DNA of 64,000 nucleotides from an archaeon. GTDB taxonomy: Archaea > Nanobdellota > Nanobdellia > Pacearchaeales > GW2011-AR1. Each line of letters starts with the position of its first letter. Positions within the stretch are counted from its first letter, which is position 1. Positions 6,176-62,420 of the stretch are shown here, piece after piece. The position numbers and the translations under genes are program-made. Location of the stretch: assembly GCA_030605415.1 (NCBI GenBank), contig JAUWIJ010000003.1, forward strand, positions 4,441 through 68,440, given 5' to 3'. The notes under the pieces are model-generated. The model did no database searches. It saw only the letters and a program-made list of their open reading frames with translations, and was not told the DNA's origin.

Positions 6176-6186
6176 TACCGATGACT

Positions 6187-12980: not shown

Positions 12981-13033
12981 ATTATTACACTACACTTTTA
13001 ATTCCTCAGCGCGAAAACAGAGCGCAAAAAATT

Positions 13034-13064
13034 ACTACCAACTACCAACTACCCACTACCAACT
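13034..13064 (+). repeat. (ACTACCA)-type heptamer array abutting the psmA stop
   Basis: The sequence actaccaactaccaactacccactaccaacta was read directly. Confidence 0.85.
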
Positions 13065-17360: not shown

Positions 17361-17676
17361 TGGACGAGAACTCAGAACTCGGTGGACGGGAAGTCCAGAT
17401 CTCAGAACTCCAACGAGAACTCAGAATTCAGATCTCAGAACTCCAACGAGAACTCAGATCTCAGAACTCAGATTTCAGAGGGGGACGGGGAGCTGGGGGC
17501 GGGGGGCACGCCCCCGGAGGGTAGGGCTTTTGGGAGTGGTGGTTCTAAGCTCTAAGAGTGAATGAAATGAACGGTCTGAGTTCTGAGTTCTAGGGAGTGG
17601 AACGACCTCTAAGAGCGAATGAAATGAGCGGTCTAAGTTCTAAGTTCTCAGTTCTGTTTTGAGCAAGAGACGAGCG
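17361..17676 (+). mobile_element. MITE-like foldback element, copy A (AGAACTC arm, GC-rich core, GAGTTCT arm)
   Basis: The ends tggacgagaactcag ... gagcaagagacgagcg match copy B at 44331-44563. The ~108-nt core 17501-17608 is near-identical to 44433-44541. No ORF. Confidence 0.65.
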
Positions 17677-26269: not shown

Positions 26270-26283
26270 TTAGAAACACTTAG

Positions 26284-26401
26284 CTCACCAGAGATACCTA
26301 CTGGGTGAAAACCTCGGTTTTTAAAAGTTCAACCAAAACCTTTATCTCACCAGAGATACCTACTGGGTGAAAACCTCGGTTTTTAAAAGTTCAACCAAAA
26401 C
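26284..26401 (+). repeat. perfect 56-nt direct repeat x2 separated by 6 nt
   Basis: ctcaccagagatacctactgggtgaaaacctcggtttttaaaagttcaaccaaaac occurs at 26284-26339 and again at 26346-26401. Confidence 0.95.
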
Positions 26402-28316: not shown

Positions 28317-30581
28317 CTACTTCTTCCCAACCTTCTTCTTAACCACCTTCTTAACCACCTTCTTTTTTTCAGCATGATTCACAATTTTCCCATCAACAAT
28401 CTCAACCTCGCCACTCGCCAACTTTGCCTTAAACTCAGCTTTCTTTTTCTGCAACTCTTCATTCGTCGAACACTCAGAGTTAAAACAAAACTTCCACGGT
28501 GCTCTACCTTTTTGAAAACTAACAATTAGAGGAAACCCGCATTCCCCACACATTTCCAACTCCTCCCCCTCCGAACCCCGCTCCCCAGCTCCCACCCCCC
28601 GCGTCCTCGCAGGACGCATCATTCCTCTCGGTGGCAAAGAATAAGTCGTTTTACAATCAGGGTAAGCGTCGCACGAAACAAAATATCTCGAAAATCTTTT
28701 CCCATACATAACCCTCAATTTTCCCTTATGGCACACAGGACACTCAGACATAGTATTTGTTTCCTTCTCCTGTTCCCATACAATCGCATTCGCATCAGCC
28801 AAACTCTTTCCCATCGCATCCAGATTTCTAGTCATCCCCTTCGCAATTTTCGTTACCGATTTCTTCGCCTCATCCAAAATCTTTTTCTCTTTTTTCGCCA
28901 AATTTTTCTTTCCCTTCAACCCCTCGATTTTTTCCAACTCTTCAGTCATCTCTCTCGTCAACTCTTCATCCAAAATAATCGGCGCATACTTCCCGAGCGT
29001 TTCAACCATTTTCATTCCAAGCTCCGTAACTTCAATACTTTTTTCTCTAACATATCCACGAGAATACAAAGTCTCAATAATTGCCGCCCGAGTTGCCTTC
29101 GTTCCAAGTCCTCGCTTTTCTAATTCTTTAACCAACGAAGCAGCAGAATACCGACGAGGTGGCTTAGTTTCTTTTTCCTCCGTCCGAATTTCCAGAACAT
29201 CAACATTGCCATCTATCGTAGGCACATTTGACTCTTTCGTGGAATGCGAATAAACATTCATCCAACCTTTCTCTTTAATCTGCACGCCTCTCGCCTTAAA
29301 ATCTAAATTGTTAACAACAACTTTAATATTTTTATTTTCAACTTTCGCCGAATCGCAAAAACAAGAAATAAATCTTTTCACAATCAAATCATAAATTTTT
29401 TTATCCCTTTCAGCAATCTTTTTAGCCTCGCCTGTAGGATAAATCGCAGGATGCGCCGGGTCGGTCTTTTTTCCCTCGGTCGGTTTCGCATTAACGGCAT
29501 ACTTAACCTTCGATGTCCATTTTTTCAACCGTTTCAAAATTTTTCCATAACCAATAGATTTATCATACTTCTGACTTGAAGTTCTTGGATATGAAATAAG
29601 TCCAGAGAGATAAAGATTCTGTGCCGCCTTCATGGTCTGCGAAGGAGTCCACCCGCAATTTTTATAAGCCTCAATTTGCAAAGTCGTCAAATCAAAAGGC
29701 GCGGGCGGAGCAACAACATCTTCTTTAATTATAGTAGATGCAACTCCGCTTTTCCCCTGCAAATGCTTAAACTTCAACAACTCACCTTTATTAAAAATAT
29801 CTTTCGGATGCTTAACCTCGACTTTCTGATTCTTAATATCTTTCACTTGCAAAAATATCTGCCAATATGGTTCCGACTTAAAATCCATAATCTCTTTCTC
29901 TTTATCTGCAACAATTTTTAATGCAGGACCTTGCACCCGACCAATCGACAAAATCCTAAAAGTCCCAGTTGAAGACAGCGCTTTCATTAAACCTCTCGAC
30001 AAGTTAATTCCATAAAACCAATCAATATAATGTCGGGTTTCTCCCGCAATCGCCGCGCCCCAATTAAGCGTCGGCAACAAATTCTCAAACGATTCATCCA
30101 ACGCCTCTTTAGTCAACAAAGAAAACTTCATCCTGTTAACATCTTTCTGCTTACAAATAAAACGCGCGACATTCCACCCAATAACCTCGCCCTCAACATC
30201 AAAGTCCGTCGCTACAATAAACTCATCGGCTTCTTTTGCTAATTTTTTTAAGACGTTCAAATATTTCTTCGTAAAAGCCCCACCCTTTTTCTGATGTGCA
30301 GGTTGCCACTTAACCTCAAAATTAGGAAACGGTCCCCTCTTCGCAATCTGCTGAATCCCAAACAAATGCCCAACCGCGCACCCAACAATATATCTTTGCT
30401 TCCCCTTGTAAAATTCATAATACGAAACCTTATCTTTATTAGTAATTTTCTCGTCCGTCGCCCCACTTAACGCCGCCGCAATTTTCGCCGCCGCCGCCGG
30501 TTTCTCCGTAATAATTAGGGTAGTGTTTTTGCCCTGACTTTTTTGGGGTACATTATTATGTGTAGTTTTCTTTTTTGTCAT
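28317..30581 (-). CDS. topA: type IA DNA topoisomerase with C-terminal zinc ribbons
   Basis: Toprim motifs are LIITEKPAAA and DFDVEGE. The active-site Tyr context is ISYPRTSS. The Zn ribbons are CPVCHKG...CDAYPDC and CGECG. Confidence 0.9.
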   Translation of the reverse strand: MTKKKTTHNNVPQKSQGKNTTLIITEKPAAAAKIAAALSGATDEKITNKDKVSYYEFYKGKQRYIVGCAVGHLFGIQQIAKRGPFPNFEVKWQPAHQKKGGAFTKKYLNVLKKLAKEADEFIVATDFDVEGEVIGWNVARFICKQKDVNRMKFSLLTKEALDESFENLLPTLNWGAAIAGETRHYIDWFYGINLSRGLMKALSSTGTFRILSIGRVQGPALKIVADKEKEIMDFKSEPYWQIFLQVKDIKNQKVEVKHPKDIFNKGELLKFKHLQGKSGVASTIIKEDVVAPPAPFDLTTLQIEAYKNCGWTPSQTMKAAQNLYLSGLISYPRTSSQKYDKSIGYGKILKRLKKWTSKVKYAVNAKPTEGKKTDPAHPAIYPTGEAKKIAERDKKIYDLIVKRFISCFCDSAKVENKNIKVVVNNLDFKARGVQIKEKGWMNVYSHSTKESNVPTIDGNVDVLEIRTEEKETKPPRRYSAASLVKELEKRGLGTKATRAAIIETLYSRGYVREKSIEVTELGMKMVETLGKYAPIILDEELTREMTEELEKIEGLKGKKNLAKKEKKILDEAKKSVTKIAKGMTRNLDAMGKSLADANAIVWEQEKETNTMSECPVCHKGKLRVMYGKRFSRYFVSCDAYPDCKTTYSLPPRGMMRPARTRGVGAGERGSEGEELEMCGECGFPLIVSFQKGRAPWKFCFNSECSTNEELQKKKAEFKAKLASGEVEIVDGKIVNHAEKKKVVKKVVKKKVGKK
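28556..28617 (+). repeat. GC-rich element inside the topA zinc-ribbon region
   Basis: The sequence is ccaactcctccccctccgaaccccgctccccagctcccaccccccgcgtcctcgcaggacgc, including the palindrome GCGTCCT-CGC-AGGACGC. It encodes ARTRGVGAGERGSEGEELE. Confidence 0.7.
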
Positions 30582-31387
30582 TATATATTATCCAGAGGAG
30601 ACTTTATATTTTTAATTGATGCTTGAGAAATATGTGTATAAATTTGTGTCGTCTTAATATCGGAGTGTCCGAGAAGTTTTTGTATAATTCTCAAATCAGT
30701 TCCTTGTTCAAGCAAATGAGTCGCAAAAGAATGACGAAGCAAATGTGGATAAACTCTTTTTTTAATACTAGCTTTTTTTGCAGAGTTTTGAACTATTTTT
30801 TGGATGGTGTTTTTTGTGAGTTTTCCTCCACGATTAGACGGAAATAAATTTTTTTCATTAACTAATCCACAATATTTTTTTAATTCTTCAAATAAAGAAT
30901 CCGGAATTTTAACAAATCTGTCTTTTTTACCTTTGGCTAATTCAATATGAATCAAACTCTCTTCAAAATTCAAATTTTTCTTTTTTAAATTAACAATTTC
31001 ACTAACACGCAAACCACATCCATAAAGAAGCTTAATAATGAGTTTATGTTTTATATTTGAGGTGGACTTAATTAATTTTTTCATCTCCTTAGTTGTCAGA
31101 ATTTCCGGAAGAGGACTATTTTTCTTAGGATTAGGAATTTTGACTTTTTGTTTCAAAACATTTTCAAAAAAAAATTTTATTGCAAAAAGATCTTTTCTTA
31201 CACTAGATGGATTTTTCTTTTTCAAATTTAATTGAATATAATTTTTTAGAACATTTTCATTTAATCCTTTATCTTCAGAATAATCAATAAATTTACGAAC
31301 AGAAAGCAAATATCCTTTAACAGTTTGTCTAGAGAAGCTTCTAATCTCTAATTCTCTTTTTAATTTCTCAATTAAACCACCCATCAA
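30581..31387 (-). CDS. xerA: tyrosine recombinase XerA-like
   Basis: The motif is RHSFATHLLEQGTDLRIIQKLLGHSDIKTTQIYTH, with an N-terminal SAM-like domain. Its stop overlaps the topA ATG (TAATG). Confidence 0.85.
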   Translation of the reverse strand: MMGGLIEKLKRELEIRSFSRQTVKGYLLSVRKFIDYSEDKGLNENVLKNYIQLNLKKKNPSSVRKDLFAIKFFFENVLKQKVKIPNPKKNSPLPEILTTKEMKKLIKSTSNIKHKLIIKLLYGCGLRVSEIVNLKKKNLNFEESLIHIELAKGKKDRFVKIPDSLFEELKKYCGLVNEKNLFPSNRGGKLTKNTIQKIVQNSAKKASIKKRVYPHLLRHSFATHLLEQGTDLRIIQKLLGHSDIKTTQIYTHISQASIKNIKSPLDNI

Positions 31388-32730: not shown

Positions 32731-32903
32731 CGGAGCTTTCAACAAAGCTCCCGATGTTGAAACCCCTAACCCCTAACTCCCAACTGCAACGTCAAAGACG
32801 TTGCCCCACAAATCCCAAATACCCAATCCCAAATCCCTCGCCCCCTTCCTTCTCCCCCCGACTACCGACCAGCGAAGCATCCGAACCCCGACAACCGACC
32901 CCC
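32731..32903 (+). repeat. composite GC-rich mosaic element downstream of the phosphoesterase gene
   Basis: It contains the hairpins GGAGCTTT-CAAC-AAAGCTCC and GCAACGTC-AAA-GACGTTGC. It also contains CCCTAACCCCTAACTCCCAACT, CACAAATCCCAAATACCCAATCCCAAATCCC and CGACCAGCGAAGCATCCGAACCCCGAC. Confidence 0.85.
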
Positions 32904-36671: not shown

Positions 36672-37265
36672 TCACCCCAAATAATCCTTCAAAATCTTTT
36701 TCCCCAATTTCTTATTATAAATTTTTAAATATTTCATTAATTTTTTCTCATCAATTTTCTCCCGGAATTTCCCTAAGACATCCTCACTAATTTTTTGTTT
36801 AAATAAAAACATATCAATAAAAGTCTTTTCCAAATCTGAATACGGAAGGCAAAATCCTCCATCATCTAAATAATCAATCCCAAACATAAATTCTTTTTTT
36901 GTGCTTCTAACCAAAACATTTCCCCCAAGGACTTTCCTGATTCCCACCCTGACTTTTTTCGGAGTTATTACTATTGGGATTGTTTCCTGTTCCCATAAAC
37001 CATAAAAACTTAAAGCAGACTGCAAACCCAAATAGGCAGGAAAACAAAGAACTATCAAACTATTATCATTGTGTTTTGTATAATACCCTTTTGCGATTTT
37101 TTTTATCTCCCCGGATTTTAAAAGATTATGAACAACAAGTTTCGCATAATTACTCTTAGAATTTTTTCTTTCAAATCGGACAATTCTCTCTATAGATTTA
37201 AAATCTACGACAAGACTTTTCTCAAATAAATTTCTTATTCTCTCTAAATGTTTGGATTTTCCCAT
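36672..37265 (-). CDS. AbiEi-like antitoxin / transcriptional regulator (type IV TA)
   Basis: An N-terminal wHTH-like region (LVVHNLLKSGEIKKIAKGYYT) is followed by AYLGLQSALSFYGL, which is typical of AbiEi. It overlaps the NTase gene by 22 nt. Confidence 0.55.
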   Translation of the reverse strand: MGKSKHLERIRNLFEKSLVVDFKSIERIVRFERKNSKSNYAKLVVHNLLKSGEIKKIAKGYYTKHNDNSLIVLCFPAYLGLQSALSFYGLWEQETIPIVITPKKVRVGIRKVLGGNVLVRSTKKEFMFGIDYLDDGGFCLPYSDLEKTFIDMFLFKQKISEDVLGKFREKIDEKKLMKYLKIYNKKLGKKILKDYLG

Positions 37266-37897
37266 TTTCTTTTTATGTATTCTTTTAGTTCATTAAAATT
37301 AGGGACAACTCCCTCCAAAAGAAGAACCTTAAGATCTTCTACATCCTCCGGAATATCTTTCTCATCAATTACTTTTTTTATGTTTTTATCAATCAAAGAG
37401 ACATTGCCAACCAACCTCATCAAGAAAAAAACGTCGTAAATATCCCTAATTTTTTTTCTACTAAGATAGGTCTTAATTTTTTCATTTAATAATTGTTCAA
37501 CAGCTAAACCATAAATAGAAATAATAGTCCCATCCACTTTTTCATAATCCAAAAGAACCCCCTTAATATTTTGAAAGGTAGCTTCTAATTTCACAGAAAC
37601 CCGACCATACTTTAGCTCTGAATAAACACTCCTGTCGGAAATTTTCTTCTTCTTAATCTCAAAACCTTTATTTTCCAAATTCTTAAATAATTTCTCTATC
37701 AAACTTTTATTCTTCGGAAAATAAAAATCTAAATCTTCGGAAAATCTTTTCCCACCATAACATCTCCAAATACAGGTTCCGCCATGAAAAACCGTAGAAG
37801 GAATTACTTTAATGGTCTCCTCAATGAGTATATCCTGAGCAAAGGCTATATTTTTATGTAATTCTTTCCTTATTCTGGAAATTAATGGCAATTTCAT
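37244..37897 (-). CDS. AbiEii/DUF1814-family nucleotidyltransferase toxin
   Basis: FHGGTCIWRCYGGKRFSEDLDFY matches the GGT...R.SEDLDF motif of AbiEii. Confidence 0.75.
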   Translation of the reverse strand: MKLPLISRIRKELHKNIAFAQDILIEETIKVIPSTVFHGGTCIWRCYGGKRFSEDLDFYFPKNKSLIEKLFKNLENKGFEIKKKKISDRSVYSELKYGRVSVKLEATFQNIKGVLLDYEKVDGTIISIYGLAVEQLLNEKIKTYLSRKKIRDIYDVFFLMRLVGNVSLIDKNIKKVIDEKDIPEDVEDLKVLLLEGVVPNFNELKEYIKRKWENPNI

Positions 37898-44330: not shown

Positions 44331-44563
44331 TGGCGAGAACTCAGAACTCGACGAGAACTCAGATCTTAGAACTCAGATCTCAGAACTCAGAGGGGGCAAC
44401 CGACGAGGACAGGGATAGGAGAAGCGGGAACGGGGGGGCACACCCCCAGGGGTAGGGCTTTTGGGAGTGGTAATTCTAAGCTCTAAGAGTGAATGAAATG
44501 AACGGTCTCAGTTCTAAGTTCTATAGAGAGTGAAACGACCTGAGTTCTGGGAGCAAAGCGACC
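44331..44563 (+). mobile_element. MITE-like foldback element, copy B
   Basis: It has the same termini and ~108-nt core as 17361-17676. Arms of AGAACTC (left) and GAGTTCT (right) form long imperfect inverted repeats. Confidence 0.65.
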
Positions 44564-48364: not shown

Positions 48365-49315
48365 TCAATTAAATACAAACTCGCTTCTGCCAAAAATCAA
48401 CTCTTCGGTCGTTCTCCGATAAATTCCTACAAATTGCTTCTTACAAAAAACCGCAAACCTATCATCAACTTTAATTTCGCCAACATCACTAATTACACTA
48501 TCTCTAAACAAAGGTCTTCCGATGTGCAATCCCTTAATCGCTTTCTTTTCAATCTCAACAACTGGTAGAACTTGCTTAATCGCATCCTCGGCAGGAATCA
48601 ACATTTTCCGCAAATCACTATCATCTCCAGCCTTCCATTTCCCAACAGCAATCTCAAACTCATCCAGCCGAACAAGTCGTCCGACACTCCGACCATCTAT
48701 TCCCATCCCCTCCGACCATCCGACCAGCGAAGCGTCCGAACACCGACCATCCGCTTCGGAGAATATCCCCGCAGATATTCGACGAAGTTCGCCCATATGC
48801 GCCCCGCCAATCATCTCGCCTAAATCCGAACATAATTTTCTAATATAAGTTCCACCCTCAACTTTGCATTCAAACAAAAAATCCCTGCCGTCCCCTTTCT
48901 TCCGAACACCGAACACCGAACACCGAACACCGGCTTCGAGAAGTCTCCAAAAGAATACTTCTCGTATTCTTTCTTCTCGAAGAACTGCCGACCGATGCGG
49001 AGGAGTTTGTTTAATCTTCCCAATAAAATTTTTATCAATCAATTTCTGCAATTTAGCTATATCCTGTTTCTTATGTGTATGTAAAATTCCGACATAGCTT
49101 TTATCGTGCTTAATAAAATATCCGGCCAACTTACAAGCCCGCCCCAACGTAATCGGCAAAACCCCAGTCACCTTCGGGTCAAGCGTTCCCATATGCGATG
49201 TCTTTTTCAGCTTTAATTGTCTTCTGACAAATTCAGAAATCGAATACGACGTCGGTCCGGCTGGCTTGTCGATATTTATTAAACTGAAATTTAGGAGCCC
49301 TTTGATTGGTTTCAT
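48365..49315 (-). CDS. cbf5: tRNA/rRNA pseudouridine synthase Cbf5 (TruB + PUA) with two repeat-derived inserts
   Basis: The evidence is INIDKPAGPTSYS, HMGTLDPKVTGVLPI, GTYIRKLCSDLG and a C-terminal PUA domain. Confidence 0.9.
   Translation of the reverse strand: MKPIKGLLNFSLINIDKPAGPTSYSISEFVRRQLKLKKTSHMGTLDPKVTGVLPITLGRACKLAGYFIKHDKSYVGILHTHKKQDIAKLQKLIDKNFIGKIKQTPPHRSAVLREERIREVFFWRLLEAGVRCSVFGVRKKGDGRDFLFECKVEGGTYIRKLCSDLGEMIGGAHMGELRRISAGIFSEADGRCSDASLVGWSEGMGIDGRSVGRLVRLDEFEIAVGKWKAGDDSDLRKMLIPAEDAIKQVLPVVEIEKKAIKGLHIGRPLFRDSVISDVGEIKVDDRFAVFCKKQFVGIYRRTTEELIFGRSEFVFN
48676..48765 (+). repeat. CCGAC/CCAGCGAAGCGTCCGAAC element inside cbf5
   Basis: The sequence is gtcgtccgacactccgaccatc...tccgaccatccgaccagcgaagcgtccgaacaccgaccatccgcttcgg. 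It encodes GRCSDASLVGWSEGMGIDGRSVGR. Confidence 0.85.
48902..48932 (+). repeat. (CCGAACA)x4 perfect heptamer array inside cbf5
   Basis: Read directly. It encodes GVRCSVFGVR. Confidence 0.95.
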
Positions 49316-54924: not shown

Positions 54925-57261
54925 TTACTTCTTCGCCTCTTCCTCAACTTCCTTAATCGTCGCCACATCTCCGACTCCCCTATCACTTCTCAGTTGAATA
55001 ATACGAGGAAATCTCAAAGCATAACCCGAAGAATAAGTCGGCGACTTTTGAATGTTCTGATATTGAACCGTAATAACAATCTCGGGCTTAACTTTAATTC
55101 TCCGTCCTTTAGTTTCAATCAACAACTTTTCTAACATGTCTGTCATCTCAACAAAACTCAAACCCTGCTCTGGCAATTCCTTCAGCCCCGTCGACACTTT
55201 CCCAACTCCAAGCAACTCGTCATTGCCATGCGATATTTTTATATTCTCAATCTCCTCTAAAACTTCTGGTACCTTCTTCAAGCACCTTCCAAAATGAAAC
55301 TTATCTTTATAAATTTTAAATTTTGCATTCAATCCCTTCGCATTTCTTTCTCCCGCCTCAAATGCAATAATAGGATCATTTCGAGAATGAATTACAATAA
55401 AATTATCACAGTGAGATTTAATCTTTTCAAAATCATAAAGACCAGCCTCATAAAACCCATGTGTATTTTTCTCTCGACTTTTCTTAATATCAGTAGGGTT
55501 ATTCGTCCCAATCAAAATTACTTTTTTAATTCGTCTCCCTTTAGATAACCTTTCCAGCCACCTCATAATCGCAACTCCTCCTCGAGAATGCCCAACTAAA
55601 ACACTATTTTCATTAGGATTAATCTTATCCAATTCCTCAAGCCACTCGCTTAAAACAGGATCATTAGTTTTTGGCAAATCTGGAGCAACAAATTCAAAAC
55701 CTTTCTTCTTGACTTCTTTACCAAGCCAAGGATACCATGCATCATTTGATGTCATCTTTTTTCCATGCATAAAAACAACATTATCTAAATTGTTTGCCGA
55801 AGGCAACTCTCCTTCGAACCCCGAACCCCGAACCCCGAATTCCGAATTCCGACACGCAACATCAAACGAAGTCAACCACCCCGCTCGCTTTCCAGTTCCC
55901 CATTCAGCACCGGTAATTACCAAATCGAAATCTTTATCTTCAGGTTTCAGTTTAACAGCATATCCAATCCGAGCCCCCGGTTTATATGGCGCCTCCAAAC
56001 TTTTCCCCATCAAACCTTCCTGATTATCATTCAATGCCTTCTCATAAAATTTCTCAACCACTTTCCCATCATCAGTAATAATTTGTTTCGCCAGAACAAT
56101 CTTAAATTTTTTCTCCTGCACAATTCGTTCAATCAAATGTCGTCTCTCGGCAAACGGCGTTGCAATCAAACTATTCCCATCATAATAAACAATGTCAAAA
56201 ACAACTAACTCAATCGGCAACGACTTCCTCATTTCAGCAATTCCATATTTCCGCCGAATCCTCTGACTAATCGCCTGAAAGTCCGTATACTTTTTCGTCA
56301 TCGCATACCCTTCTTGGGTCTTACCAGCAGGTGCAAACCCAACCGCTTCAGCGTCGAGAATAAAACTATTCCCCTTAACATGATTTTCAACATACTCAAC
56401 AATTTCAGGAAATTGCGTCGTCACCTCTTCCAGTCGTCGGGTAAAAATTTTAATCCTTCCATCGCTTTCCTTATTAATCATAACCCTAAATCCATCATAC
56501 TTGTATTCAAATGCCGCGGGGCGACCGACAATTTTAAACGCATCTTCAACGTCCTTCGCCTTCGGAAACAACATAACTTTTATGGGTTTCCCCGGCTCCA
56601 ATTTAATTTTCTCCAACGAATCATCACACGCTCTCTCAAAAACCTCAGCAAAATCCGTAGCCCTGTCATACGCCTTCTGAACTTCTTTAACACAAGTCTT
56701 TTTATCTTCCAAATTTTTCGGCTTAAAACAATACATAGCAATCGCATCCCTCAAAATACCAGACCCAACACCAATTTTCAAATCACCCAAAACAGTCCGC
56801 ACAATATACCTTGCCTCTTTCGGCGTCGCTGAGTGCAACAAATCAACAATAAACCCAACCTTCAAATCAACCGTTCCATTTCCCTCAATCGTCGGCAACT
56901 TCCGTAAATTATCCATAACTTTCTCAACACTTAACTTTTCAGAAAACAAAGCCGTCTGCGTTTTCCTTTTCTTTAAAATTGATTCTGCAACTTTTCCTAA
57001 ATCTCCAAGTTTTTTAAACTCATCAACAACTTCTGCATCATTAATTCCAGCCGCTCTCCCAATTGCCCGAATCACCAACTGATGCGAAATTCCCAATTCT
57101 CGATTATCATAATCCGCAAACAACCGACCCTGCAATAAATAAATCAACTCAGGTTTATCCTTAATATTCCCCAGAAAACTCGCAAGTATATCCGTCTTTT
57201 CCAAGCCCTTCGACGTCGATTCCAACGCTTCATAAATTTCACATATCTTCGAATAGTCCAT
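54925..57261 (-). CDS. lig: ATP-dependent DNA ligase carrying an inserted alpha/beta-hydrolase domain
   Basis: It has a DBD N-terminus, the adenylation motif EYKYDGFR, EGLMGK, and the OB domain and motif VI (YALRFPRIIQLRSDR). It is 778 aa, versus roughly 550-600 aa for typical archaeal ligases. Confidence 0.9.
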   Translation of the reverse strand: MDYSKICEIYEALESTSKGLEKTDILASFLGNIKDKPELIYLLQGRLFADYDNRELGISHQLVIRAIGRAAGINDAEVVDEFKKLGDLGKVAESILKKRKTQTALFSEKLSVEKVMDNLRKLPTIEGNGTVDLKVGFIVDLLHSATPKEARYIVRTVLGDLKIGVGSGILRDAIAMYCFKPKNLEDKKTCVKEVQKAYDRATDFAEVFERACDDSLEKIKLEPGKPIKVMLFPKAKDVEDAFKIVGRPAAFEYKYDGFRVMINKESDGRIKIFTRRLEEVTTQFPEIVEYVENHVKGNSFILDAEAVGFAPAGKTQEGYAMTKKYTDFQAISQRIRRKYGIAEMRKSLPIELVVFDIVYYDGNSLIATPFAERRHLIERIVQEKKFKIVLAKQIITDDGKVVEKFYEKALNDNQEGLMGKSLEAPYKPGARIGYAVKLKPEDKDFDLVITGAEWGTGKRAGWLTSFDVACRNSEFGVRGSGFEGELPSANNLDNVVFMHGKKMTSNDAWYPWLGKEVKKKGFEFVAPDLPKTNDPVLSEWLEELDKINPNENSVLVGHSRGGVAIMRWLERLSKGRRIKKVILIGTNNPTDIKKSREKNTHGFYEAGLYDFEKIKSHCDNFIVIHSRNDPIIAFEAGERNAKGLNAKFKIYKDKFHFGRCLKKVPEVLEEIENIKISHGNDELLGVGKVSTGLKELPEQGLSFVEMTDMLEKLLIETKGRRIKVKPEIVITVQYQNIQKSPTYSSGYALRFPRIIQLRSDRGVGDVATIKEVEEEAKK
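55222..55845 (-). other. ~208-aa in-frame insertion in the ligase OB domain: YdeN/RBBP9-like serine hydrolase fold
   Basis: The insertion lies between FDVACRN and DELLGVGKVSTG. It contains VVFMHG, WYPWL and the nucleophile-elbow-like VGHSRGG. Confidence 0.7.
55815..55856 (+). repeat. (CGAACCC)x3 (CGAATTC)x2 heptamer array at the N-terminal junction of the ligase insert
   Basis: Read directly. It encodes SEFGVRGSGFEG. Confidence 0.95.
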
Positions 57262-57291: not shown

Positions 57292-57771
57292 TTACTCCAA
57301 TTGTTCTTTTTTCAAAACAAAAATCTTTTCTGTGTTCAAAGATTCCCATCTCATGGAAGTAGAATAAAATAAATCGACTTCAGGATTTTTTGATAAAATA
57401 CTCTTATATAAATTCTGATCATACGACGATATATTTTTATTTTCAGACTCGAAAGTCATATTTTCTTTACTCATAACGTTATAATAGGGAACTAATAATT
57501 TTCCAATTTGCTTAGATACTTGTCTCGAGTCAAATATTTCATCATTAATATATATCTCTCGTCTACTCTCAAATCTCCCATAAGGAAAAGATTTTTTCAT
57601 ATGAAATGAAAAAATATCTCTTGTAAAACATGGAATAACATCAAAAGGACTCTTTCCCGATTCAATCTGTTCTAACATATCTAAAGCATCACTATCCTCC
57701 AGGCAAACTTCCGCCCAATTATAATCATCATAAACAAAATAGGGAACTGTAATGATGTCGGTCTCTATCAT
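57292..57771 (-). CDS. hypothetical protein (159 aa)
   Basis: Clean ORF. No family recognised. Confidence 0.4.
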   Translation of the reverse strand: MIETDIITVPYFVYDDYNWAEVCLEDSDALDMLEQIESGKSPFDVIPCFTRDIFSFHMKKSFPYGRFESRREIYINDEIFDSRQVSKQIGKLLVPYYNVMSKENMTFESENKNISSYDQNLYKSILSKNPEVDLFYSTSMRWESLNTEKIFVLKKEQLE

Positions 57772-57874
57772 AGATATTAAATCATTTGTATCTTTTTAAG
57801 GATTGTTACACTTTACCATAGACTATATTAATTCATTACTAAACATTTATAAAAAAAATAATTCTTAATTCTTC

Positions 57875-58192
57875 ATGGATGTAACAGACGCAAACTTTGA
57901 AACTGAAGTTATCGAAAAATCAAAAACAACTCCAGTTCTGGTAGATTTTTGGGCAAGCTGGTGCGGACCGTGTGTGATGCTAAAACCGGTTCTTGAAAAA
58001 ATTGCAACAGAATATGAAGGCAAATTTATTCTAGCAAAAGCAAATTCAGACGATAACTCGAACACAGCAGAAAAATTCGGCGTGATGTCAATCCCGGCAG
58101 TAAAACTTTTCAAAAACGGCAAAGTAGTAGATGAATTCGTTGGCGTGCAGCCCGAAGTAACAATCAAACAATGGCTCGACAAGAAATTGTAA
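57875..58192 (+). CDS. trxA: thioredoxin
   Basis: The active site is WASWCGPC, and VPAVKLFKNGK is the Trx fold. Confidence 0.9.
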   Translation: MDVTDANFETEVIEKSKTTPVLVDFWASWCGPCVMLKPVLEKIATEYEGKFILAKANSDDNSNTAEKFGVMSIPAVKLFKNGKVVDEFVGVQPEVTIKQWLDKKL

Positions 58193-58516
58193 TTATCTAA
58201 TAAAATATTCAATCTTATTTCTTACTTTCTCATAAAACTTTTTTTCAAGTCGTGCCAATTTTTTAATAATAATTCTTTCATCAATTGCAAAAATCCTATG
58301 AGGCTTAACCCAACTTTTGAATGGTAATGTCCCGTCGCTAAATGAATTTTTATTAATTAAAACGCCATCCATTGGTCTATTGGAAGTAATCAGGCAACAA
58401 ATTTTATCTCCGCCTTTCAAGTTTTTATTCGAAATAATTATCGCGGGTCTTTTCTTAGCGCCAGTTAAATCCGAGTAAGGAAATGGAATTAAAATAATAT
58501 CTCTTTGTTTAAACAT
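58193..58516 (-). CDS. PemK/MazF-family toxin
   Basis: The evidence is RDIILIPFPYSDLTGAKKRPAIIIS and CCLITSN. Confidence 0.8.
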   Translation of the reverse strand: MFKQRDIILIPFPYSDLTGAKKRPAIIISNKNLKGGDKICCLITSNRPMDGVLINKNSFSDGTLPFKSWVKPHRIFAIDERIIIKKLARLEKKFYEKVRNKIEYFIR

Positions 58517-58739
58517 TATTCCACCTTTCGTCGGTCTCGTTGTCCCAATCTTTTTTCAAAACTTCTTCCGACGCCAACATAGTCATAATGCCCTCGCTGT
58601 TTTTATCATTCTCAATTTGATTAAGTTCTGCAATTCTTTGCCGAATAACCTTTCTAATAAACTCGCTCCATTTAATTTCAGAATATTTTTTCATTAAATT
58701 ATAGGTTTCAGTCTCAATCGATAACGTGACATTTGTCAT
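58509..58739 (-). CDS. antitoxin (RHH-like) for the MazF-type toxin
   Basis: 76 aa. It overlaps the toxin start by 8 nt. The N-terminal VTLSIETETYNLMKK has a strand-helix pattern. Confidence 0.55.
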   Translation of the reverse strand: MTNVTLSIETETYNLMKKYSEIKWSEFIRKVIRQRIAELNQIENDKNSEGIMTMLASEEVLKKDWDNETDERWNNV

Positions 58740-58778
58740 AATTAATTAAGTGACATCACTTATTTAAACTTTTCGACA

Positions 58779-58825
58779 CACAACCCGAAGCCACAATCAA
58801 ACAATGGCTCGACGAGAAATTGTAA
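58779..58825 (+). pseudogene. orphan copy of the trxA 3' end (codes ..QPEATIKQWLDEKL*)
   Basis: cacaacccgaagccacaatcaaacaatggctcgacgagaaattgtaa compares with native 58145-58192. Confidence 0.85.
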
Positions 58826-58850
58826 ATTAATTATTTTTTCTAAAATTCTG

Positions 58851-58903
58851 TCGGTAGTCGACTTTCCCTGCCCCCACAAACCCCAAATACCTCGCGAAGC
58901 GTG
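58851..58903 (+). repeat. GC-rich mosaic element remnant between the two orphan trxA ends
   Basis: The sequence is tcggtagtcgactttccctgcccccacaaaccccaaatacctcgcgaagcgtgt. Confidence 0.7.
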
Positions 58904-58950
58904 TGCAACCCGAAGCCACAATCAAACAATGGCTCGACGAGAAATTGTGA
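58903..58950 (+). pseudogene. second orphan copy of the trxA 3' end
   Basis: It shares an identical 43-nt run (caacccgaagccacaatcaaacaatggctcgacgagaaattgt) with 58779-58825. It differs from the native copy at 5 of 48 positions. Confidence 0.85.
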
Positions 58951-58956
58951 TTTAGT

Positions 58957-59502
58957 TTAAGGTTTAATTGGAATAGCTTGTTTTAATAGTCTTAGTAATT
59001 TATCTTCTTTAGAAACATACCCAGAAGATGAAAATCTTTTACCCTCCAAATAATTATAAACAATTTCTGCATCATCTAAAGCATCTGATGTGTAAGGATT
59101 AGATCCCATAAATAGAGTTTCACCAACTCTTCCACTATCTATTTTAGAAATTTCAATTAAAGGTTTTAGATTTACAGGATCTACATAAACAGGGGATTGA
59201 CATCTGTAATGCATAACAATTTTTTCATCGGGCTCAAATTCTGCATCATCATTTGCTTTCCAGTATTGTCTAAATGATTTTGTTCCCAATACTCTAAAAA
59301 AAATTTGCTTATCAAAAACACCATTGTATTTTAATTCATCAATTGCCTGATTAAATACATCCTCTCTTTTTACCTGTTCCATCCAAAAATCCTTTTTTAT
59401 AACAACTCCAAAACAATCATAATTTCTTGAAAAATTAGAATCAACATAAATTATATCTCCTAAAGAATATTTTCTAACGCTTTTTTCTTTTAAGCTAACC
59501 AT
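58957..59502 (-). CDS. hypothetical protein (181 aa)
   Basis: ORF with a TATA at 59524-59533. No family recognised. Confidence 0.4.
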   Translation of the reverse strand: MVSLKEKSVRKYSLGDIIYVDSNFSRNYDCFGVVIKKDFWMEQVKREDVFNQAIDELKYNGVFDKQIFFRVLGTKSFRQYWKANDDAEFEPDEKIVMHYRCQSPVYVDPVNLKPLIEISKIDSGRVGETLFMGSNPYTSDALDDAEIVYNYLEGKRFSSSGYVSKEDKLLRLLKQAIPIKP

Positions 59503-59523
59503 TAAAGTGAGCTAGATTCCTAG

Positions 59524-59533
59524 TTTATAAAAA
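59524..59533 (-). promoter_or_regulatory. TATA-like box for 58957..59502
   Basis: TTTTTATAAA on the minus strand, 22-31 nt from the ATG. Confidence 0.45.
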
Positions 59534-59566
59534 TTATTATAGTAGAGTTATTAACATCCCACATTT

Positions 59567-59764
59567 TTACTTTCTAGGTATAATTATCCAGGCAATTAAA
59601 TAAGCAAGAATTCCTGTCCCGTATCCAAACACAAAAAGCACCCATAATAATCTTACCAACACAGGGTCAATTTTAAAATAATCAGCAATCCCCGCACAAA
59701 CTCCCGCAATTATAGAATCCTTCTCAGACGCCCGATACAATCTCCTTATTTTCTTTTTTGCCAT
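59567..59764 (-). CDS. PspC-domain membrane protein
   Basis: RLYRASEKDSIIAGVCAGIADYFKIDPVLVRLLWVL matches the PspC domain. Confidence 0.7.
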   Translation of the reverse strand: MAKKKIRRLYRASEKDSIIAGVCAGIADYFKIDPVLVRLLWVLFVFGYGTGILAYLIAWIIIPRK

Positions 59765-59805: not shown

Positions 59806-60237
59806 CTAAATACTCTTAATTTTTCTCTGAAATTTTATTTTTTCTCCCTGATGATCAAAAATAATAATAAATTTATCGAAAAATCCATTCCTTCCCAAAA
59901 TCATCGGAGCTTTGGTTTCTTGCATTATTACTTCCACAGGAACATCTCTAAATTTATAATTTTCATGAGAATTTTGAATTTTAATGCTCATTTTAGTTTT
60001 TAATGTTTTTACTTGCCCGCCGATTCCATTTGCGATAGTTTCTTTTCCACTCAAATCCAAACCAATCAATTCCGCTAAATCTCTCGGGATAACAGAAACA
60101 TCCGCCCCAGAATCTACCAGAGCCATAGTCTGAATCCAGCCAGGACCATTTCCCTTAATTTCTATAGGAATATGTGGCAATTTCGCCTCAACTCCATCGG
60201 CTCTTTTCTGCAATTTATACTTAAAAATAATCGCCAT
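59806..60237 (-). CDS. retropepsin-like aspartic protease
   Basis: ALVDSGADVSVIP is the D-S/T-G-A active-site loop, and there is a later ILGRNGFF. Confidence 0.75.
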   Translation of the reverse strand: MAIIFKYKLQKRADGVEAKLPHIPIEIKGNGPGWIQTMALVDSGADVSVIPRDLAELIGLDLSGKETIANGIGGQVKTLKTKMSIKIQNSHENYKFRDVPVEVIMQETKAPMILGRNGFFDKFIIIFDHQGEKIKFQRKIKSI

Positions 60238-60238
60238 C

Positions 60239-60439
60239 TTAAAAAATCATTGTTTGTTCTTCAGGAACTCTAGCAATCATAATCTTCTTTTTAGGATATT
60301 TCTCTTGAGCCTCTTCAAATGTTTTTTTTGCGTTATCCCCGAACGAAACAATATTTTCCTCACAAATAGCTATCCACTTGCCCTTAAAATTTTCTAAATT
60401 AGAACTCATAAAAACATTATAATTTGATTCTTTAGTCAT
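60239..60439 (-). CDS. DUF5678-like small protein
   Basis: 66 aa with FKGKWIAICEENIVSFGDNAKKTFEEAQEKYP. Only 1 nt separates it from the protease gene. Confidence 0.55.
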   Translation of the reverse strand: MTKESNYNVFMSSNLENFKGKWIAICEENIVSFGDNAKKTFEEAQEKYPKKKIMIARVPEEQTMIF

Positions 60440-61654: not shown

Positions 61655-61788
61655 ATCAGATGCCTCCAAAGTATCGGTATTATGTTTAGCCCTGTCCATT
61701 TTCAGGACCCTGAACCTCAATAGGTGAGCTGTTACGCTTTCTTTAAATGATAGCTGCTTCTAAACTTACATCCCCAGTGTCTCAGGTT
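61655..61788 (-). rRNA. isolated 23S rRNA-like fragment (GTPase-associated centre H42-H44 and following, about E. coli 1040-1165)
   Basis: The minus strand reads GGGAUGUAAGUUUAGAAGCAGCUAUCAUUUAAAGAAAGCGUAACAGCUCACC...GGGCUAAACAUAAUACCGAUACUUUGGAGG. From memory, the E. coli sequence is GGAUGUUGGCUUAGAAGCAGCCAUCAUUUAAAGAAAGCGUAAUAGCUCAC...GGGGCUAAACCAUGCACCGAAGCUGCGG. There is no flanking rRNA sequence. Confidence 0.7.
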
Positions 61789-61811
61789 CAAATCAATGAG
61801 CCCGCCGTGAT

Positions 61812-61851
61812 GAGTCTGCCCCAACCAATTTTTTTATATTTGTGAGGGTAT
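61812..61851 (+). repeat. GTCTGCCCCAACC...TTTGTGAGGGTA module
   Basis: The sequence is gagtctgccccaaccaatttttttatatttgtgagggtat. The same ~45-nt module occurs at 5032-5079 and 10733-10776. Confidence 0.85.
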
Positions 61852-61965
61852 TTACTCAAAAAATACATCTCAAAATTATAAATAAAAAATCAGAACGCAT
61901 AATTTTTCAAAGCGTTTTCCTCGCACAGGACTATCCTGTCTTCAAATCAATGAGCCCGCTGTGAT
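61851..61965 (+). repeat. 115-nt unit, copy 1 (tRNA-Ile 3' flank plus 15 nt of the tRNA)
   Basis: tttactcaaaaaatacatctc...cacaggactatcctgtcttcaaatcaatgagcccgctgtgat is almost identical to 62083-62199. Confidence 0.9.
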
Positions 61966-62048
61966 GGGTCTGCCCCACCCAATCTTCTTTTATATTTGGT
62001 AGGGTACAGCGTGCCCCAACCTAATTTAAAAATATATTTGTGAGGGTA
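61966..62048 (+). repeat. two tandem GTCTGCCCCA(A/C)CC...TTTG(G/T)(T/G)AGGGTA modules
   Basis: They lie at 61966-62007 and 62008-62048. Confidence 0.85.
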
Positions 62049-62082
62049 TTGAACACTGTTCAAATCAATGAGCCCGCTGTGA

Positions 62083-62199
62083 TTTACTCAAAAAATGCAT
62101 CTCAAAATTATAAATAAAAAATCAGAACGCATAATTTTTCAAAGCGTTTTCCTCGCACAGGACTGTCCTGTCTTCAAATCCAAATGAGCCCGCTGTGAT
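62083..62199 (+). repeat. 115-nt unit, copy 2, running into the intact tRNA-Ile
   Basis: It differs from copy 1 at two substitutions and one 2-nt indel. Confidence 0.9.
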
Positions 62200-62258
62200 T
62201 TGAACACAGGACCTCTGCCTTATCAGAGCAGCGCGCTACCTGGCTGCGCCACGGGCTC
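62185..62258 (-). tRNA. tRNA-Ile (anticodon GAU), 74 nt, no encoded CCA
   Basis: Folded by hand. The acceptor is GAGCCCG/CGGGCTC and the D stem is GCGC/GCGC. The anticodon stem is CTGCT/GGCAG with loop CTGATAA. The T arm is CTGTG-TTCAAAT-CACAG and the discriminator is A. Confidence 0.9.
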
Positions 62259-62292
62259 ATATAAATATTAACAGAAAATTCAATTTATAAAA

Positions 62293-62420
62293 CTAACCCC
62301 CTACTCTTAGTTGATAGTCTTTAGTTTGTAGTCAGTAGTCTCCCGCTTCCCCCGCCCCTAACTCCTAACCCCGACCAGCGAAGCGTCCGAACTCCGACCA
62401 CCGACCTCCTCGCCCCTATC
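62293..62420 (+). repeat. composite GC-rich mosaic element between tRNA-Ile and the next gene
   Basis: It contains TAGTTGATAGTC..TAGTTTGTAGTCAGTAGTC, CCCGCTTCCCCCGCCCCTAACTCCTAACC and CCGACCAGCGAAGCGTCCGAACTCCGACCACCGACC. Confidence 0.85.

What the first reader, a model, noticed from the sequence alone, without database searches (positions are those of the whole stretch)
58145..58950. trxA 3' end is present three times, bracketing a MazF TA cassette and a repeat remnant
The native trxA end (58145-58192) is followed directly by a 586-bp segment that encodes only a PemK/MazF toxin and its antitoxin. Then comes an orphan copy of the last ~47 nt of trxA (58779-58825). After that comes a 77-nt spacer with a mosaic-element remnant, and then a second orphan copy (58903-58950). 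The two orphan copies share an identical 43-nt run but differ from the in-gene copy at 5 positions. This is the pattern left by site-specific integration into a gene's 3' end, where the incoming DNA supplies a replacement end. It appears to have happened twice.
Basis: partly seen in the sequence, partly recalled or inferred. Interest (0 to 1): 0.72.

Follow-up and report, generated by a model that had tools for sequence, protein, structure and literature searches.

The report
Gene-cassette array behind archaeal trxA
In this DPANN (Woesearchaeota-type) archaeon the last ~45-57 bases of the thioredoxin gene occur three times because small DNA cassettes (a MazEF toxin-antitoxin pair and a non-coding repeat element) were inserted one after another into the gene's end, each bringing a new end; related genomes show empty sites, other cassettes and up to four copies, but no integrase.

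Summary
The trxA 3' end occurs at 58145-58192 (in the gene), 58781-58825 (with a decayed extension back to 58769) and 58903-58950. Chance expectation is 0. An independent assembly confirms the first two copies.

Two relatives have empty sites: L003 (trxA abuts the 181-aa gene) and L010. Copy 3 is the ancestral end, still joined to its original neighbour. A close relative (L130) has four copies. Its last copy plus flank is 100% identical to L010's native end, while its working trxA switches allele exactly at -49. This shows directly that incoming DNA supplies a replacement end.

The same cassettes (MazEF, mosaic spacer) sit in a different order in L130. Other genomes carry other cargo at the same site (NUDIX, wHTH pair, a 3-gene set).

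No cassette encodes an integrase. The repeat has no hairpin or dyad symmetry, and no viral attP was found. The only tyrosine recombinase in the window is XerA, 27 kb away. Orphan copies track their own genome's trxA, which indicates ongoing repeat-by-repeat recombination.

Verdict: this is a recurrent, integron-like cassette array anchored in the trxA 3' end. The enzyme (homologous recombination or a recombinase acting in trans) is unresolved. It is a new variant of a known kind.

The parts
57875..58192 (+). trxA (thioredoxin, 105 aa), the anchor gene. Synteny TBP - DNA ligase - trxA - variable slot - PspC - L15e is conserved in relatives.
   Evidence: Pfam PF00085, 9.3e-30; synteny table
58145..58192 (+). 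R copy c1: the in-gene 3' end (positions -48 to stop; V..K allele). It is the current functional end, inferred to have arrived with the most recent insertion.
   Evidence: Differs from c2 and c3 at 4-5 of 45 positions.
58193..58516 (-). MazF/PemK toxin gene. Its stop codon abuts the trxA stop codon with 0 nt between them, the same junction as in L114, L132 and L130 (there after orphan o1).
   Evidence: Pfam PF02452, 6.6e-14; junctions
58509..58739 (-). RHH antitoxin gene (76 aa), overlapping the toxin start by 8 nt. The family has 424 homologues, all about 76 aa. The hits that carry a source name are labelled Nanoarchaeota or Pacearchaeota.
   Evidence: PF26688 RHH_12 precomputed; weak VapB-type hit
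58740..58768 (-). Antitoxin promoter/operator region: palindrome GTGACATCAC (58750-58759) and a TATA-like TTTAAATAA on the minus strand (58760-58768). It forms the conserved right edge of the cassette ('cacttatttaaa').
   Evidence: Sequence. The same edge occurs in L021, L114, L130, L132 and L126. The promoter function is inferred.
58769..58825 (+). R copy c2 (orphan). 58769-58780 is a decayed remnant of trxA -57..-46. 58781-58825 is well preserved: 44/45 identical to c3 and 41/45 to c1, with a TAA stop.
   Evidence: junction homology with the L114 and L132 orphans
58826..58902 (.). S77 spacer cassette. Left end is ATTAATTATTTTTTCTAAAATTCT (T-tract just after the stop). The middle is GC-rich mosaic modules. 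Right end is CCCAAATACCTCGCGAAGCGT, containing a GCGAAGC mini-hairpin motif (58894-58900). It is homologous at both ends to the 177-nt spacer of L130.
58903..58950 (+). R copy c3 (orphan, TGA stop): the ancestral trxA end, still joined to its original downstream neighbour. The left junction CGCGAAGCGT|GTGCAACCCGAA recurs in L130 (twice), L131, L126-129 and L021.
   Evidence: alignment with L003's native end plus flank; junction pattern
58957..59502 (-). 181-aa gene of unknown function, convergent with trxA. This is the resident gene that directly follows trxA in the empty-site relative L003 (83% aa identity).
   Evidence: no Pfam, NCBIfam or PADLOC hit
30581..31387 (-). XerA-type tyrosine recombinase, the only tyrosine recombinase found among the window proteins I scanned. 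It is listed only as a candidate enzyme acting in trans; nothing links it to the array.
   Evidence: Pfam Phage_integrase, 2.9e-44; NCBIfam NF040815 recomb_XerA_Arch, 238 bits against cutoff 220

Best explanation
The region behind trxA is a cassette array. Small DNA units are each bounded by a copy of the last ~45-57 nt of trxA ('R'), and they have been inserted serially at the 3' end of the working gene.

Each insertion brings its own R, which becomes the new gene end. The previous end is pushed downstream as an orphan. In the window the history reads from right to left:
1. c3 is the original end, still attached to the resident 181-aa gene.
2. Then came the non-coding S77 unit, with c2 as its gene end.
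3. Then came the MazEF unit, with c1.

Shown: the topology, the empty sites, the replacement of the end, the recurrence with other cargo, and the shuffling of cassette order.

Inferred: the cassettes encode no recombinase. I think the joining is most likely done by the host's homologous recombination acting on R itself. This would include Campbell-type integration and pop-out of R-bearing circles, double-crossover import from related strains using trxA and an orphan R as the two arms, and gene conversion between copies.

The MazEF cassette would protect itself, and its part of the array, from R-by-R deletion by post-segregational killing.
For: - Copies and cargo.
- Empty sites: L003 and L010.
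- Replacement end shown directly: L130 o3 plus flank is 55/55 identical to L010, and the L130 in-gene copy switches allele at -49.
- Recurrence with different cargo at the same site:
  - L006, L018+26 and L022+27: HTH-NUDIX.
  - L005 and L020: wHTH plus an 88-aa gene.
  - L024: a 216-nt unit.
  - L126: relative of the wHTH cassette.
  - L130: a 3-gene unit.
- Cassette order differs between close relatives. The window has trxA|MazEF|R|S|R. L130 has trxA|S|R|MazEF|R|3 genes|R.
- The copies came from working genes. All 5 differences between the L006 native end and its orphan are synonymous.
- Evidence for recombination between homologous copies rather than at a fixed core:
  - The L132 orphan is 51/52 identical to its own native end, including lineage-specific codons.
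  - The L114 orphan is 39/39 identical on the left and decayed on the right.
  - The L024 orphan keeps a trxA-like 5' leader and ATG and has an internal deletion.
  - L015 switches from L011-like to L006-identical sequence 85-129 nt before the stop.
  - Window versus L010 identity drops from 96% (ligase) to 86-88% (trxA to L15e) and returns to 93-97%.
- No integrase in any array (gene tables). R has no fold. No viral attP was found.
Against: - 45-57 nt is short for efficient homologous recombination, and 125-640-bp circles are poor substrates.
- The junction CGCRAAGCGTG-NN-CAACCC is identical behind different cargos in at least four lineages. All window-type orphans start at -45/-48. This precision looks site-specific.
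- In L130 the allele switch in the gene coincides with the orphan's left boundary. A site-specific exchange at the edge of R predicts this coincidence. Homologous recombination explains it only if the incoming R was flanked by more trxA sequence.
- The same window has four copies of the tRNA-Ile 3' end, the classical integrase scar.
- L015 may be a chimeric low-coverage assembly.
- No read-level evidence of circles or of polymorphism was available.
Confidence: 0.5

Rival explanations
1. Integron-like or IMEX-like site-specific system. A recombinase encoded elsewhere (XerA, or the integrase of a helper virus or plasmid) recognises a core inside R, perhaps together with the adjacent GCGAAGC hairpin module. 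It integrates and excises integrase-less cassette circles at the trxA end and at orphan R copies.
For: - Integrase-less mini-cassettes are flanked by direct R copies, and their order is shuffled between close relatives.
- The composite junction is conserved behind different cargos in at least four lineages.
- The allele switch at -49 coincides with the orphan boundary at -48.
- R stays attached to MazEF even inside a TA island without trxA (L118).
- XerA is present in the window.
- There is a tRNA-Ile 3'-end array in the same window.
- Cassette edges are tight: 0 nt between the two stop codons, and the promoter abuts R.
Against: - No recombinase is linked to any array.
- R shows no dyad symmetry or stable fold (z from -0.03 to -1.7).
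- R's left boundary varies by cassette type (45/48, 57, 67, 74, 109 nt).
- The L114 conversion tract has the opposite polarity to what a fixed crossover would give.
- The L024 orphan carries a whole 5' leader.
- R is conserved only as expected for coding sequence; third-codon positions vary.
Confidence: 0.3
2. Classical scars. Full-size integrase-bearing viruses or plasmids integrated into the trxA 3' end by their own integrases. They later decayed by deletion, leaving only the TA module and a spacer between att-site remnants.
For: [quoted passage not shown]
- TA modules are typical survivors of decayed elements (general knowledge).
- Direct repeats and empty sites are as expected.
Against: - The MazEF unit has identical, minimal edges in the window, L114, L132 and L130 (stop codon abutting stop codon, promoter abutting R). 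Random deletion would not produce this repeatedly.
- No integrase fragment was seen in any of about 15 distinct arrays.
- No attP-like R and no MazF relative was found in IMG/VR.
- All cassettes are 0.1-1.2 kb.
Confidence: 0.1
3. Homology-facilitated illegitimate recombination with decay. Linear DNA from a relative, carrying trxA plus its downstream gene, is anchored by homology in ligase or trxA. It is joined illegitimately inside the recipient's trxA, and the leftover recipient end decays. There is no cassette unit as such.
For: - Orphan lengths are variable.
- The L024 orphan has a 5' leader and an internal deletion.
- L015 has an upstream crossover.
- L010 shows a donor-type arrangement, trxA-NUDIX without an orphan.
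- Differences in L006 are synonymous only.
Against: - Identical junctions recur in different lineages and behind different cargos.
- The same units occur in different orders.
- R accompanies MazEF away from trxA.
- Orphans are kept near-identical to the native end.
Confidence: 0.07
4. Artefact, or a purely local duplication: assembly loop or replication slippage, with no foreign DNA.
For: - The 43-nt exact repeat breaks k=31 assemblies.
- The c2-S77-c3 join is seen only in the window assembly.
Against: - An independent assembly confirms c1-MazEF-c2.
- The four flanks of c2 and c3 are all different.
- The homologous S+R unit exists in L130. The o1-MazEF-o2 segment of that array, with the mosaic end to its left and the first genes of the 3-gene set to its right, is confirmed by a second assembly, L131.
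- Allele differences between the copies are mostly coding-compatible.
Confidence: 0.03

Closest known systems
Integrated mobile elements in the 3'-distal region of genes (tRNA or protein-coding) with an element-supplied replacement end. Examples: archaeal iMGEs (PMC6563490); phage 21 and e14 in E. coli icd (from memory).
   Same: Direct repeats of the gene's 3' end flank the insert. The gene stays intact because the incoming DNA supplies a new end. Empty sites occur in relatives. Tandem arrays form by re-use of the site.
   Different: No integrase in any unit. Units are only 0.1-1.2 kb. The same units occur in different orders. Repeat copies evolve in concert with the working gene end.
Integrons (IntI, attI, attC cassette arrays, often stabilised by TA cassettes)
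   Same: An array of small, integrase-less cassettes, each ending in a copy of one recombination sequence. Insertion is next to a fixed anchor. The order is shuffled between relatives. There is a TA cassette in the array.
   Different: No IntI and no attI/Pc platform. The repeat is the coding end of a housekeeping gene, without an attC-type hairpin. Cassettes carry their own promoter. Arrays hold only 1-3 cassettes.
Xer-exploiting elements (IMEX such as CTX/TLC at dif; pdif modules of Acinetobacter plasmids). Comparison from memory.
   Same: Units lack a recombinase of their own. They sit in tandem at one chromosomal site. TA modules are common cargo. A Xer-family recombinase is present in the genome.
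   Different: R does not look like a dif site (no 11-6-11 dyad). It lies inside a coding sequence. The repeats are direct and 45-57 nt or longer. No link to XerA is shown.
Variable islets between conserved genes that are exchanged by homologous recombination of the flanks (general population-genomics concept)
   Same: Conserved ligase-trxA and L15e flanks surround a fast-changing slot. Mosaic identity profiles occur between close relatives. The trxA phylogeny is discordant with L15e.
   Different: Here the left anchor is duplicated at each unit, which gives the units portable homology arms and cassette-like behaviour.

Membership tests
Site-specific integrative element in a gene's 3' end (tyrosine-integrase iMGE) | Insert flanked by direct repeats (attL/attR) derived from the target gene's end | tested here: met
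   c1, c2 and c3; equivalent pairs in L005, L006, L114, L130 and L132
Site-specific integrative element in a gene's 3' end (tyrosine-integrase iMGE) | Empty target site in related genomes | tested here: met
   L003 and L010; L004 versus L005
Site-specific integrative element in a gene's 3' end (tyrosine-integrase iMGE) | Incoming DNA restores the gene with its own version of the end | tested here: met
   L130 versus L010: allele switch at -49, and the displaced end is 100% host type
Site-specific integrative element in a gene's 3' end (tyrosine-integrase iMGE) | Element encodes its integrase (or an identifiable remnant) | tested here: not met
   The window cassette holds only MazF and the antitoxin. 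The PHROGs library was not searched. Gene tables of all arrays show no recombinase.
Site-specific integrative element in a gene's 3' end (tyrosine-integrase iMGE) | Excised circular form, or attP on a free replicon | tested here: inconclusive
   No R-like sequence, junction or MazF relative in IMG/VR. Read-level circle detection is not possible with these tools.
Integron | IntI integrase with its extra domain, adjacent to the array (attI/Pc platform) | tested here: not met
   The only tyrosine recombinase found is 27 kb away. It reaches the XerA equivalog cutoff but falls below the integron-integrase cutoffs (203 against 265 bits).
Integron | attC sites: imperfect palindromes that fold as single-strand hairpins | tested here: not met
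   Folding R with flanks on both strands gives z-scores from -0.03 to -1.7, with no conserved stem
Integron | Array of discrete cassettes, each bounded by the recombination site, with variable order | tested here: met
   Window versus L130 versus L126
Xer-exploiting elements (IMEX / dif modules) | Flanking sites resemble dif (two inverted ~11-bp arms around a 6-bp spacer) | tested here: inconclusive
   No dyad symmetry is evident in R (and inspection). The dif site of these archaea is unknown, so no direct comparison was possible.
Xer-exploiting elements (IMEX / dif modules) | Host Xer recombinase present and no recombinase in the element | tested here: met
   XerA at 30581-31387; cassettes have no recombinase
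Type II toxin-antitoxin system, MazEF/PemIK class | PemK/MazF-fold toxin | tested here: met
   PF02452, 6.6e-14, full-length match 3-104
Type II toxin-antitoxin system, MazEF/PemIK class | Small upstream DNA-binding antitoxin in one operon with the toxin | tested here: met
   76-aa RHH_12 protein overlaps the toxin start by 8 nt. The pair is conserved in more than 10 loci.
Type II toxin-antitoxin system, MazEF/PemIK class | Ribonuclease toxicity neutralised by the antitoxin | not testable with these tools
   Needs an expression assay

The most novel reading that the evidence does not exclude
Woesearchaeota-type DPANN archaea possess an integron-like gene-capture platform. Its recombination site would be a ~60-nt module: a GCGAAGC mini-hairpin followed by the last 45 nt of trxA. 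Integrase-less cassettes (TA pairs, NUDIX regulators, small membrane proteins, terminator/insulator spacers) would be inserted, excised and reshuffled at the end of a housekeeping gene by a recombinase acting in trans, possibly XerA. The tRNA-Ile 3'-end array 3 kb away would be a second such platform.
Probability: 0.25. Interest if true: 0.85.

Novelty: new variant of a known kind. Interest (0 to 1): 0.62.

Why it matters
DPANN archaea have tiny genomes, and their routes of gene gain are poorly understood. Here a housekeeping gene end serves as a reusable docking site for minimal transcription-unit cassettes that carry no recombinase. The data include empty sites, arrays of up to four copies, and reshuffled order in near-identical strains.

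If a recombinase acting in trans is responsible, this is an archaeal counterpart of integrons or Xer-exploiting elements, with a coding sequence as the att site. If plain homologous recombination is responsible, it shows how a duplicated gene end can act as a portable homology arm that turns ordinary genes into mobile cassettes, with a TA pair guarding the array against pop-out.

Either outcome can be tested directly with existing metagenome reads.

Tried and rejected
- The exact-type R pattern in GTDB genomes found nothing. A codon-degenerate pattern was needed.
- R, the mosaic+R junction and MazF were all absent from IMG/VR.
- PADLOC gave no defence-system hit for MazF, the antitoxin, the 181-aa or 159-aa proteins, or the L005 88-aa and L006 NUDIX proteins. 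The only hits were weak ones for the L005 wHTH protein.
- R folding as an attC-like hairpin was rejected.
- R as a dif site was rejected as unsupported. Conservation is only coding-level and there is no dyad.
- Locating the crossover from the two copies alone was abandoned. Differences between the copies equal host-versus-element differences wherever the crossover lies.
- L015 looked like a clean recombinant (3 mismatches to L011 in 2887 nt, 8 in the last 85 nt, then 679 nt identical to L006). It is a 2.3x-coverage contig and could be an assembly chimera, so I treat it only as a hint.
- The remnants in L021 were statistically weak by alignment. They became credible only through the exact junction pattern.
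- Retro-transposition of an mRNA was rejected because the cassette includes its promoter.
- Programmed C-terminal switching of TrxA was rejected because the alleles differ by only 2 conservative residues.
- Literature searches found no description of trxA as an archaeal docking site.
Full report
**1. The observation.** Reading 57500-59600 and running the repeat tools confirms three direct copies of the 3' end of trxA (57875-58192, Pfam thioredoxin 9.3e-30).
- c1 is 58145-58192, inside the gene.
- c2 is 58781-58825.
- c3 is 58903-58950.

A 30-nt core matches three times in the window and never in 100 shuffles. c2 and c3 share an exact 43-nt run. c1 differs from them at 4 and 5 of 45 positions. 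Both orphans stay in the thioredoxin frame.

Between c1 and c2 lie only a PemK/MazF toxin (58193-58516, minus strand) and an overlapping 76-aa RHH antitoxin (58509-58739, minus strand). The toxin's stop codon touches the trxA stop codon. The antitoxin's TATA-like box and a GTGACATCAC palindrome fill the 29 nt up to a decayed 12-nt extension of c2, which comparison with relatives reveals.

The 77-nt spacer between c2 and c3 consists of the GC-rich modules found all over the window. It ends in ...CCCAAATACCTCGCGAAGCGT.

An independent Logan assembly of the same sample reproduces trxA-MazF-antitoxin-c2 and breaks inside c2. Another breaks inside c3, as expected for a 43-nt repeat at k=31.

**2. 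Who it is.** The window carries an archaeal L15e, TBP, an ATP-dependent DNA ligase and a XerA. Codon-degenerate patterns of the repeat hit only Woesearchaeota, Pacearchaeota and 'archaeon' MAGs and metagenome contigs.

In the relatives whose contigs cover it, the order TBP - ligase - trxA(+) - variable slot - PspC(-) - L15e(-) mostly recurs. Some relatives lack PspC or have another gene upstream of trxA. The slot itself changes even between close relatives.

**3. Empty sites, and which copy is the old one.**
- L003 is about 85% identical at the nucleotide level. It has trxA followed directly by the orthologue of the window's 181-aa gene, with no cassette and no orphan.
- c3, with its TGA stop and right flank, aligns with L003's native end and flank. 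So c3 is the original end in situ.
- L010 (96% identical in the ligase) has trxA followed directly by an HTH-NUDIX gene.

**4. Direct proof that incoming DNA supplies a replacement end.** L130 is a 2.1-kb contig whose antitoxin is 96% identical to the window's. It has four copies:

trxA end | 177-nt mosaic spacer | o1 | MazF-antitoxin | o2 | three small membrane-protein genes + mosaic | o3.

- o3 plus 7 nt of flank is 55/55 identical to L010's native trxA end and flank.
- L130's working trxA is identical to L010 from -104 to -50. It then differs at -49, -47, -36, -25, -22, -12 and -7.
- The chance that all seven differences fall in the last 49 of 104 positions is about 0.004 (my calculation).
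- The allele switch sits exactly where the orphan's homology begins (-48).
- A second assembly (L131) confirms the o1-MazEF-o2 segment, with the mosaic end to its left and the first genes of the 3-gene set to its right.

**5. It is a recurrent cassette site.** Other genomes carry other cargo between a working trxA and an orphan end.

| Locus | Cargo | Orphan length or note |
|---|---|---|
| L006, L018+26, L022+27 | HTH-NUDIX gene | about 74 nt |
| L005, L020 | wHTH gene plus an 88-aa gene | about 67 nt; L004 is the matching empty site |
| L126-129 | relative of the wHTH cassette, followed by an orphan and then MazEF | |
| L024 | 216-nt non-coding unit | orphan keeps a trxA-like leader, the ATG and the last 36 codons |

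The MazEF unit lies right after trxA in L114, L132, L133, L138/L139 and L021 as well. Where its edges are preserved, they are the same minimal edges.

The spacer unit is homologous at both ends between the window (77 nt, placed after MazEF) and L130 (177 nt, placed before MazEF). So the same units occur in different orders in near-identical strains.

The junction CGCRAAGCGTG-NN-CARCCNGAA (mosaic end plus R from -48/-45) occurs behind different cargos in the window, L130 (twice), L131, L126-129 and L021.

Even in a TA island with no trxA (L118-125), the MazEF pair keeps an IKQWLDKNY*-coding remnant at the toxin's stop.

**6. Where the copies came from.** In L006 all five native-versus-orphan differences are synonymous third-position changes. 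In L005 five of eight are synonymous. Both copies therefore evolved as ends of working genes before being brought together, which excludes simple local duplication followed by decay.

The cassette is not a recent long-range import, however. MazE and MazF identities among seven genomes (63-87%) lie in the range of TrxA and L15e, and they correlate with L15e (r 0.5-0.6).

**7. Mechanism.** No array contains or adjoins a recombinase (gene tables).
- The only tyrosine recombinase found among the window proteins I scanned (about 15 of 74 ORFs) is 27 kb away. It is a XerA equivalog (238 bits, cutoff 220) and falls below the integron-integrase cutoffs.
- R has no stable fold.
- R, the junction and MazF are all absent from IMG/VR.

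Several facts point to recombination between homologous copies.
- The L132 orphan is 51/52 identical to its own native end, including lineage-specific codons.
- The L114 orphan is 39/39 identical on its left and decayed, with an in-frame stop, on its right.
- L024 shows a whole-gene duplication followed by internal deletion.
- L015 switches from L011-like to L006-identical sequence 85-129 nt before the stop. This contig may be chimeric.
- Window versus L010 identity is mosaic: 96% in the ligase, 86-88% from trxA to L15e, and 93-97% beyond.

Other facts point to a site-specific enzyme.
- The conserved composite junction.
- The fixed -45/-48 boundary in the window group.
- The coincidence of the allele switch with the orphan boundary in L130.
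- The shuffling of tiny units.
- Four copies of the tRNA-Ile 3' end 3 kb away in the same window.

I therefore commit to the following. This is a cassette array built by serial insertion at the trxA end, with each unit bringing a replacement end (confidence about 0.85 for that topology).
- Most likely it is driven by host homologous recombination on R (about 0.5 for the whole statement).
- A recombinase acting in trans is the main rival (0.3).
- Decayed full-size elements (0.1), homology-facilitated illegitimate recombination (0.07) and artefact (0.03) follow.

The TA pair plausibly protects the array from R-by-R pop-out. This is an inference from the known behaviour of TA cassettes in chromosomal integrons.

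**8. Comparison with known systems.** Integration into the 3'-distal part of archaeal protein genes, and arrays formed by re-use of a site, are documented (PMC6563490). The element-supplied gene end is classical (icd/phage 21, from memory).

What differs here:
- there is no integrase;
- the units are of minimal size;
- one recombination module recurs behind unrelated cargos;
- the order is reshuffled;
- R evolves in concert with the gene end.

It works like an integron or an array of Xer-exploiting elements. It fails their defining tests: no IntI, no attC fold, no dif-like dyad. I rate it a new variant of a known kind.

Noticed in passing
window 61788-62259: The 3'-terminal 16 nt of tRNA-Ile(GAT) (gene 62184-62259, minus strand) plus 9-11 nt of trailer ('TTCAAATC(CA)AATGAGCCCGCYGTGAT') occur four times as direct repeats: 61788-61812, 61941-61965, 62058-62082 and in the gene. 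Segments of 100-137 nt lie between them, including two 99-nt copies that are 98% identical. This is the same topology as the trxA array, at a classical integration target.
   Followed up: partly
window 61685-61795 (minus strand): An isolated 111-nt fragment matches archaeal 23S rRNA model positions 1157-1270 (Rfam RF02540, 78.6 bits, E 1.9e-20). It has no rRNA operon around it and sits directly next to the leftmost tRNA-Ile end copy.
   Followed up: no
window 54925-57261 (minus strand): The ATP-dependent DNA ligase is 778 aa because a Ser_hydrolase (PF06821) domain is inserted at about aa 496-657. Orthologues in L003, L005, L006, L024 and L132 are 562-596 aa and lack the insert. The left edge of the insert is encoded by mosaic-repeat-like sequence (SEFGVRGSGFEG).
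   Followed up: partly
window, many sites (e.g. 6179-6312, 13023-13069, 17413-17648, 19697-19839, 32799-32898, 44351-44528, 48703-48753, 62309-62404): GC-rich 'mosaic' repeats are built from short modules (CACAAATCCCAAATCCC, CCAACTACCAAC, GAGTTCTGAGTTCT, ACCAGCGAAGCGTCCGA with a GCGAAGC mini-hairpin motif) in an AT-rich genome. Most are intergenic, but one lies in frame inside the Cbf5/TruB-like ORF 48365-49315. Relatives have them too. No Rfam family matched them at gathering thresholds.
   Followed up: partly
window 57292-57771 and 59806-60439: Compared with L003, the window has two further insertions near trxA. One is a 159-aa gene of unknown function between the ligase and trxA. The other is an aspartyl-protease plus DUF5678 gene pair between PspC and L15e. 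Neither is flanked by gene-end repeats.
   Followed up: partly
L005 4034-4684 (minus strand): The 216-aa protein next to the orphan trxA end has a C-terminal tail (...LGKDWKNKMDKRWNNL) resembling the C-terminus of the window antitoxin (KKDWDNETDERWNNV). Its L004 orthologue (188 aa) lacks the tail. This may be a fused remnant of an antitoxin gene.
   Followed up: no
L118-L125 (e.g. L118 1-5231): An 83%-identical antitoxin with its MazF partner sits in a dense island of TA modules (MazE/ParE, RHH/PemK, ParE, NYN) beside a reverse-transcriptase gene. The island recurs in at least 24 contigs read (the index lists 120 blocks), and the 8 places shown come from 8 samples. A trxA-end remnant is still attached to the toxin's stop.
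   Followed up: partly
L011 8437-8856 and L033: An IS200/IS605-type TnpA-like protein (139 aa, with an HVHLFV motif) lies in the variable slot behind trxA-PspC. The assignment is by eye only and was not tested with Pfam.
   Followed up: no
window 36672-37897 (minus strand): A second TA-like pair: an AbiEii nucleotidyltransferase toxin (37244-37897, Pfam 1.2e-15) with an overlapping 197-aa partner that has no family hit.
   Followed up: no
window 26274-26397: Two tandem 62-nt copies (95% identical) lie between the Rad50-like gene and the next ORF. Unexplained.
   Followed up: no
trxA across loci W, L021, L114, L126, L132, L133, L139: TrxA pairwise identities do not track those of L15e (r -0.19), whereas MazE and MazF do (r 0.5-0.6). 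This suggests that trxA itself is frequently exchanged between lineages.
   Followed up: partly
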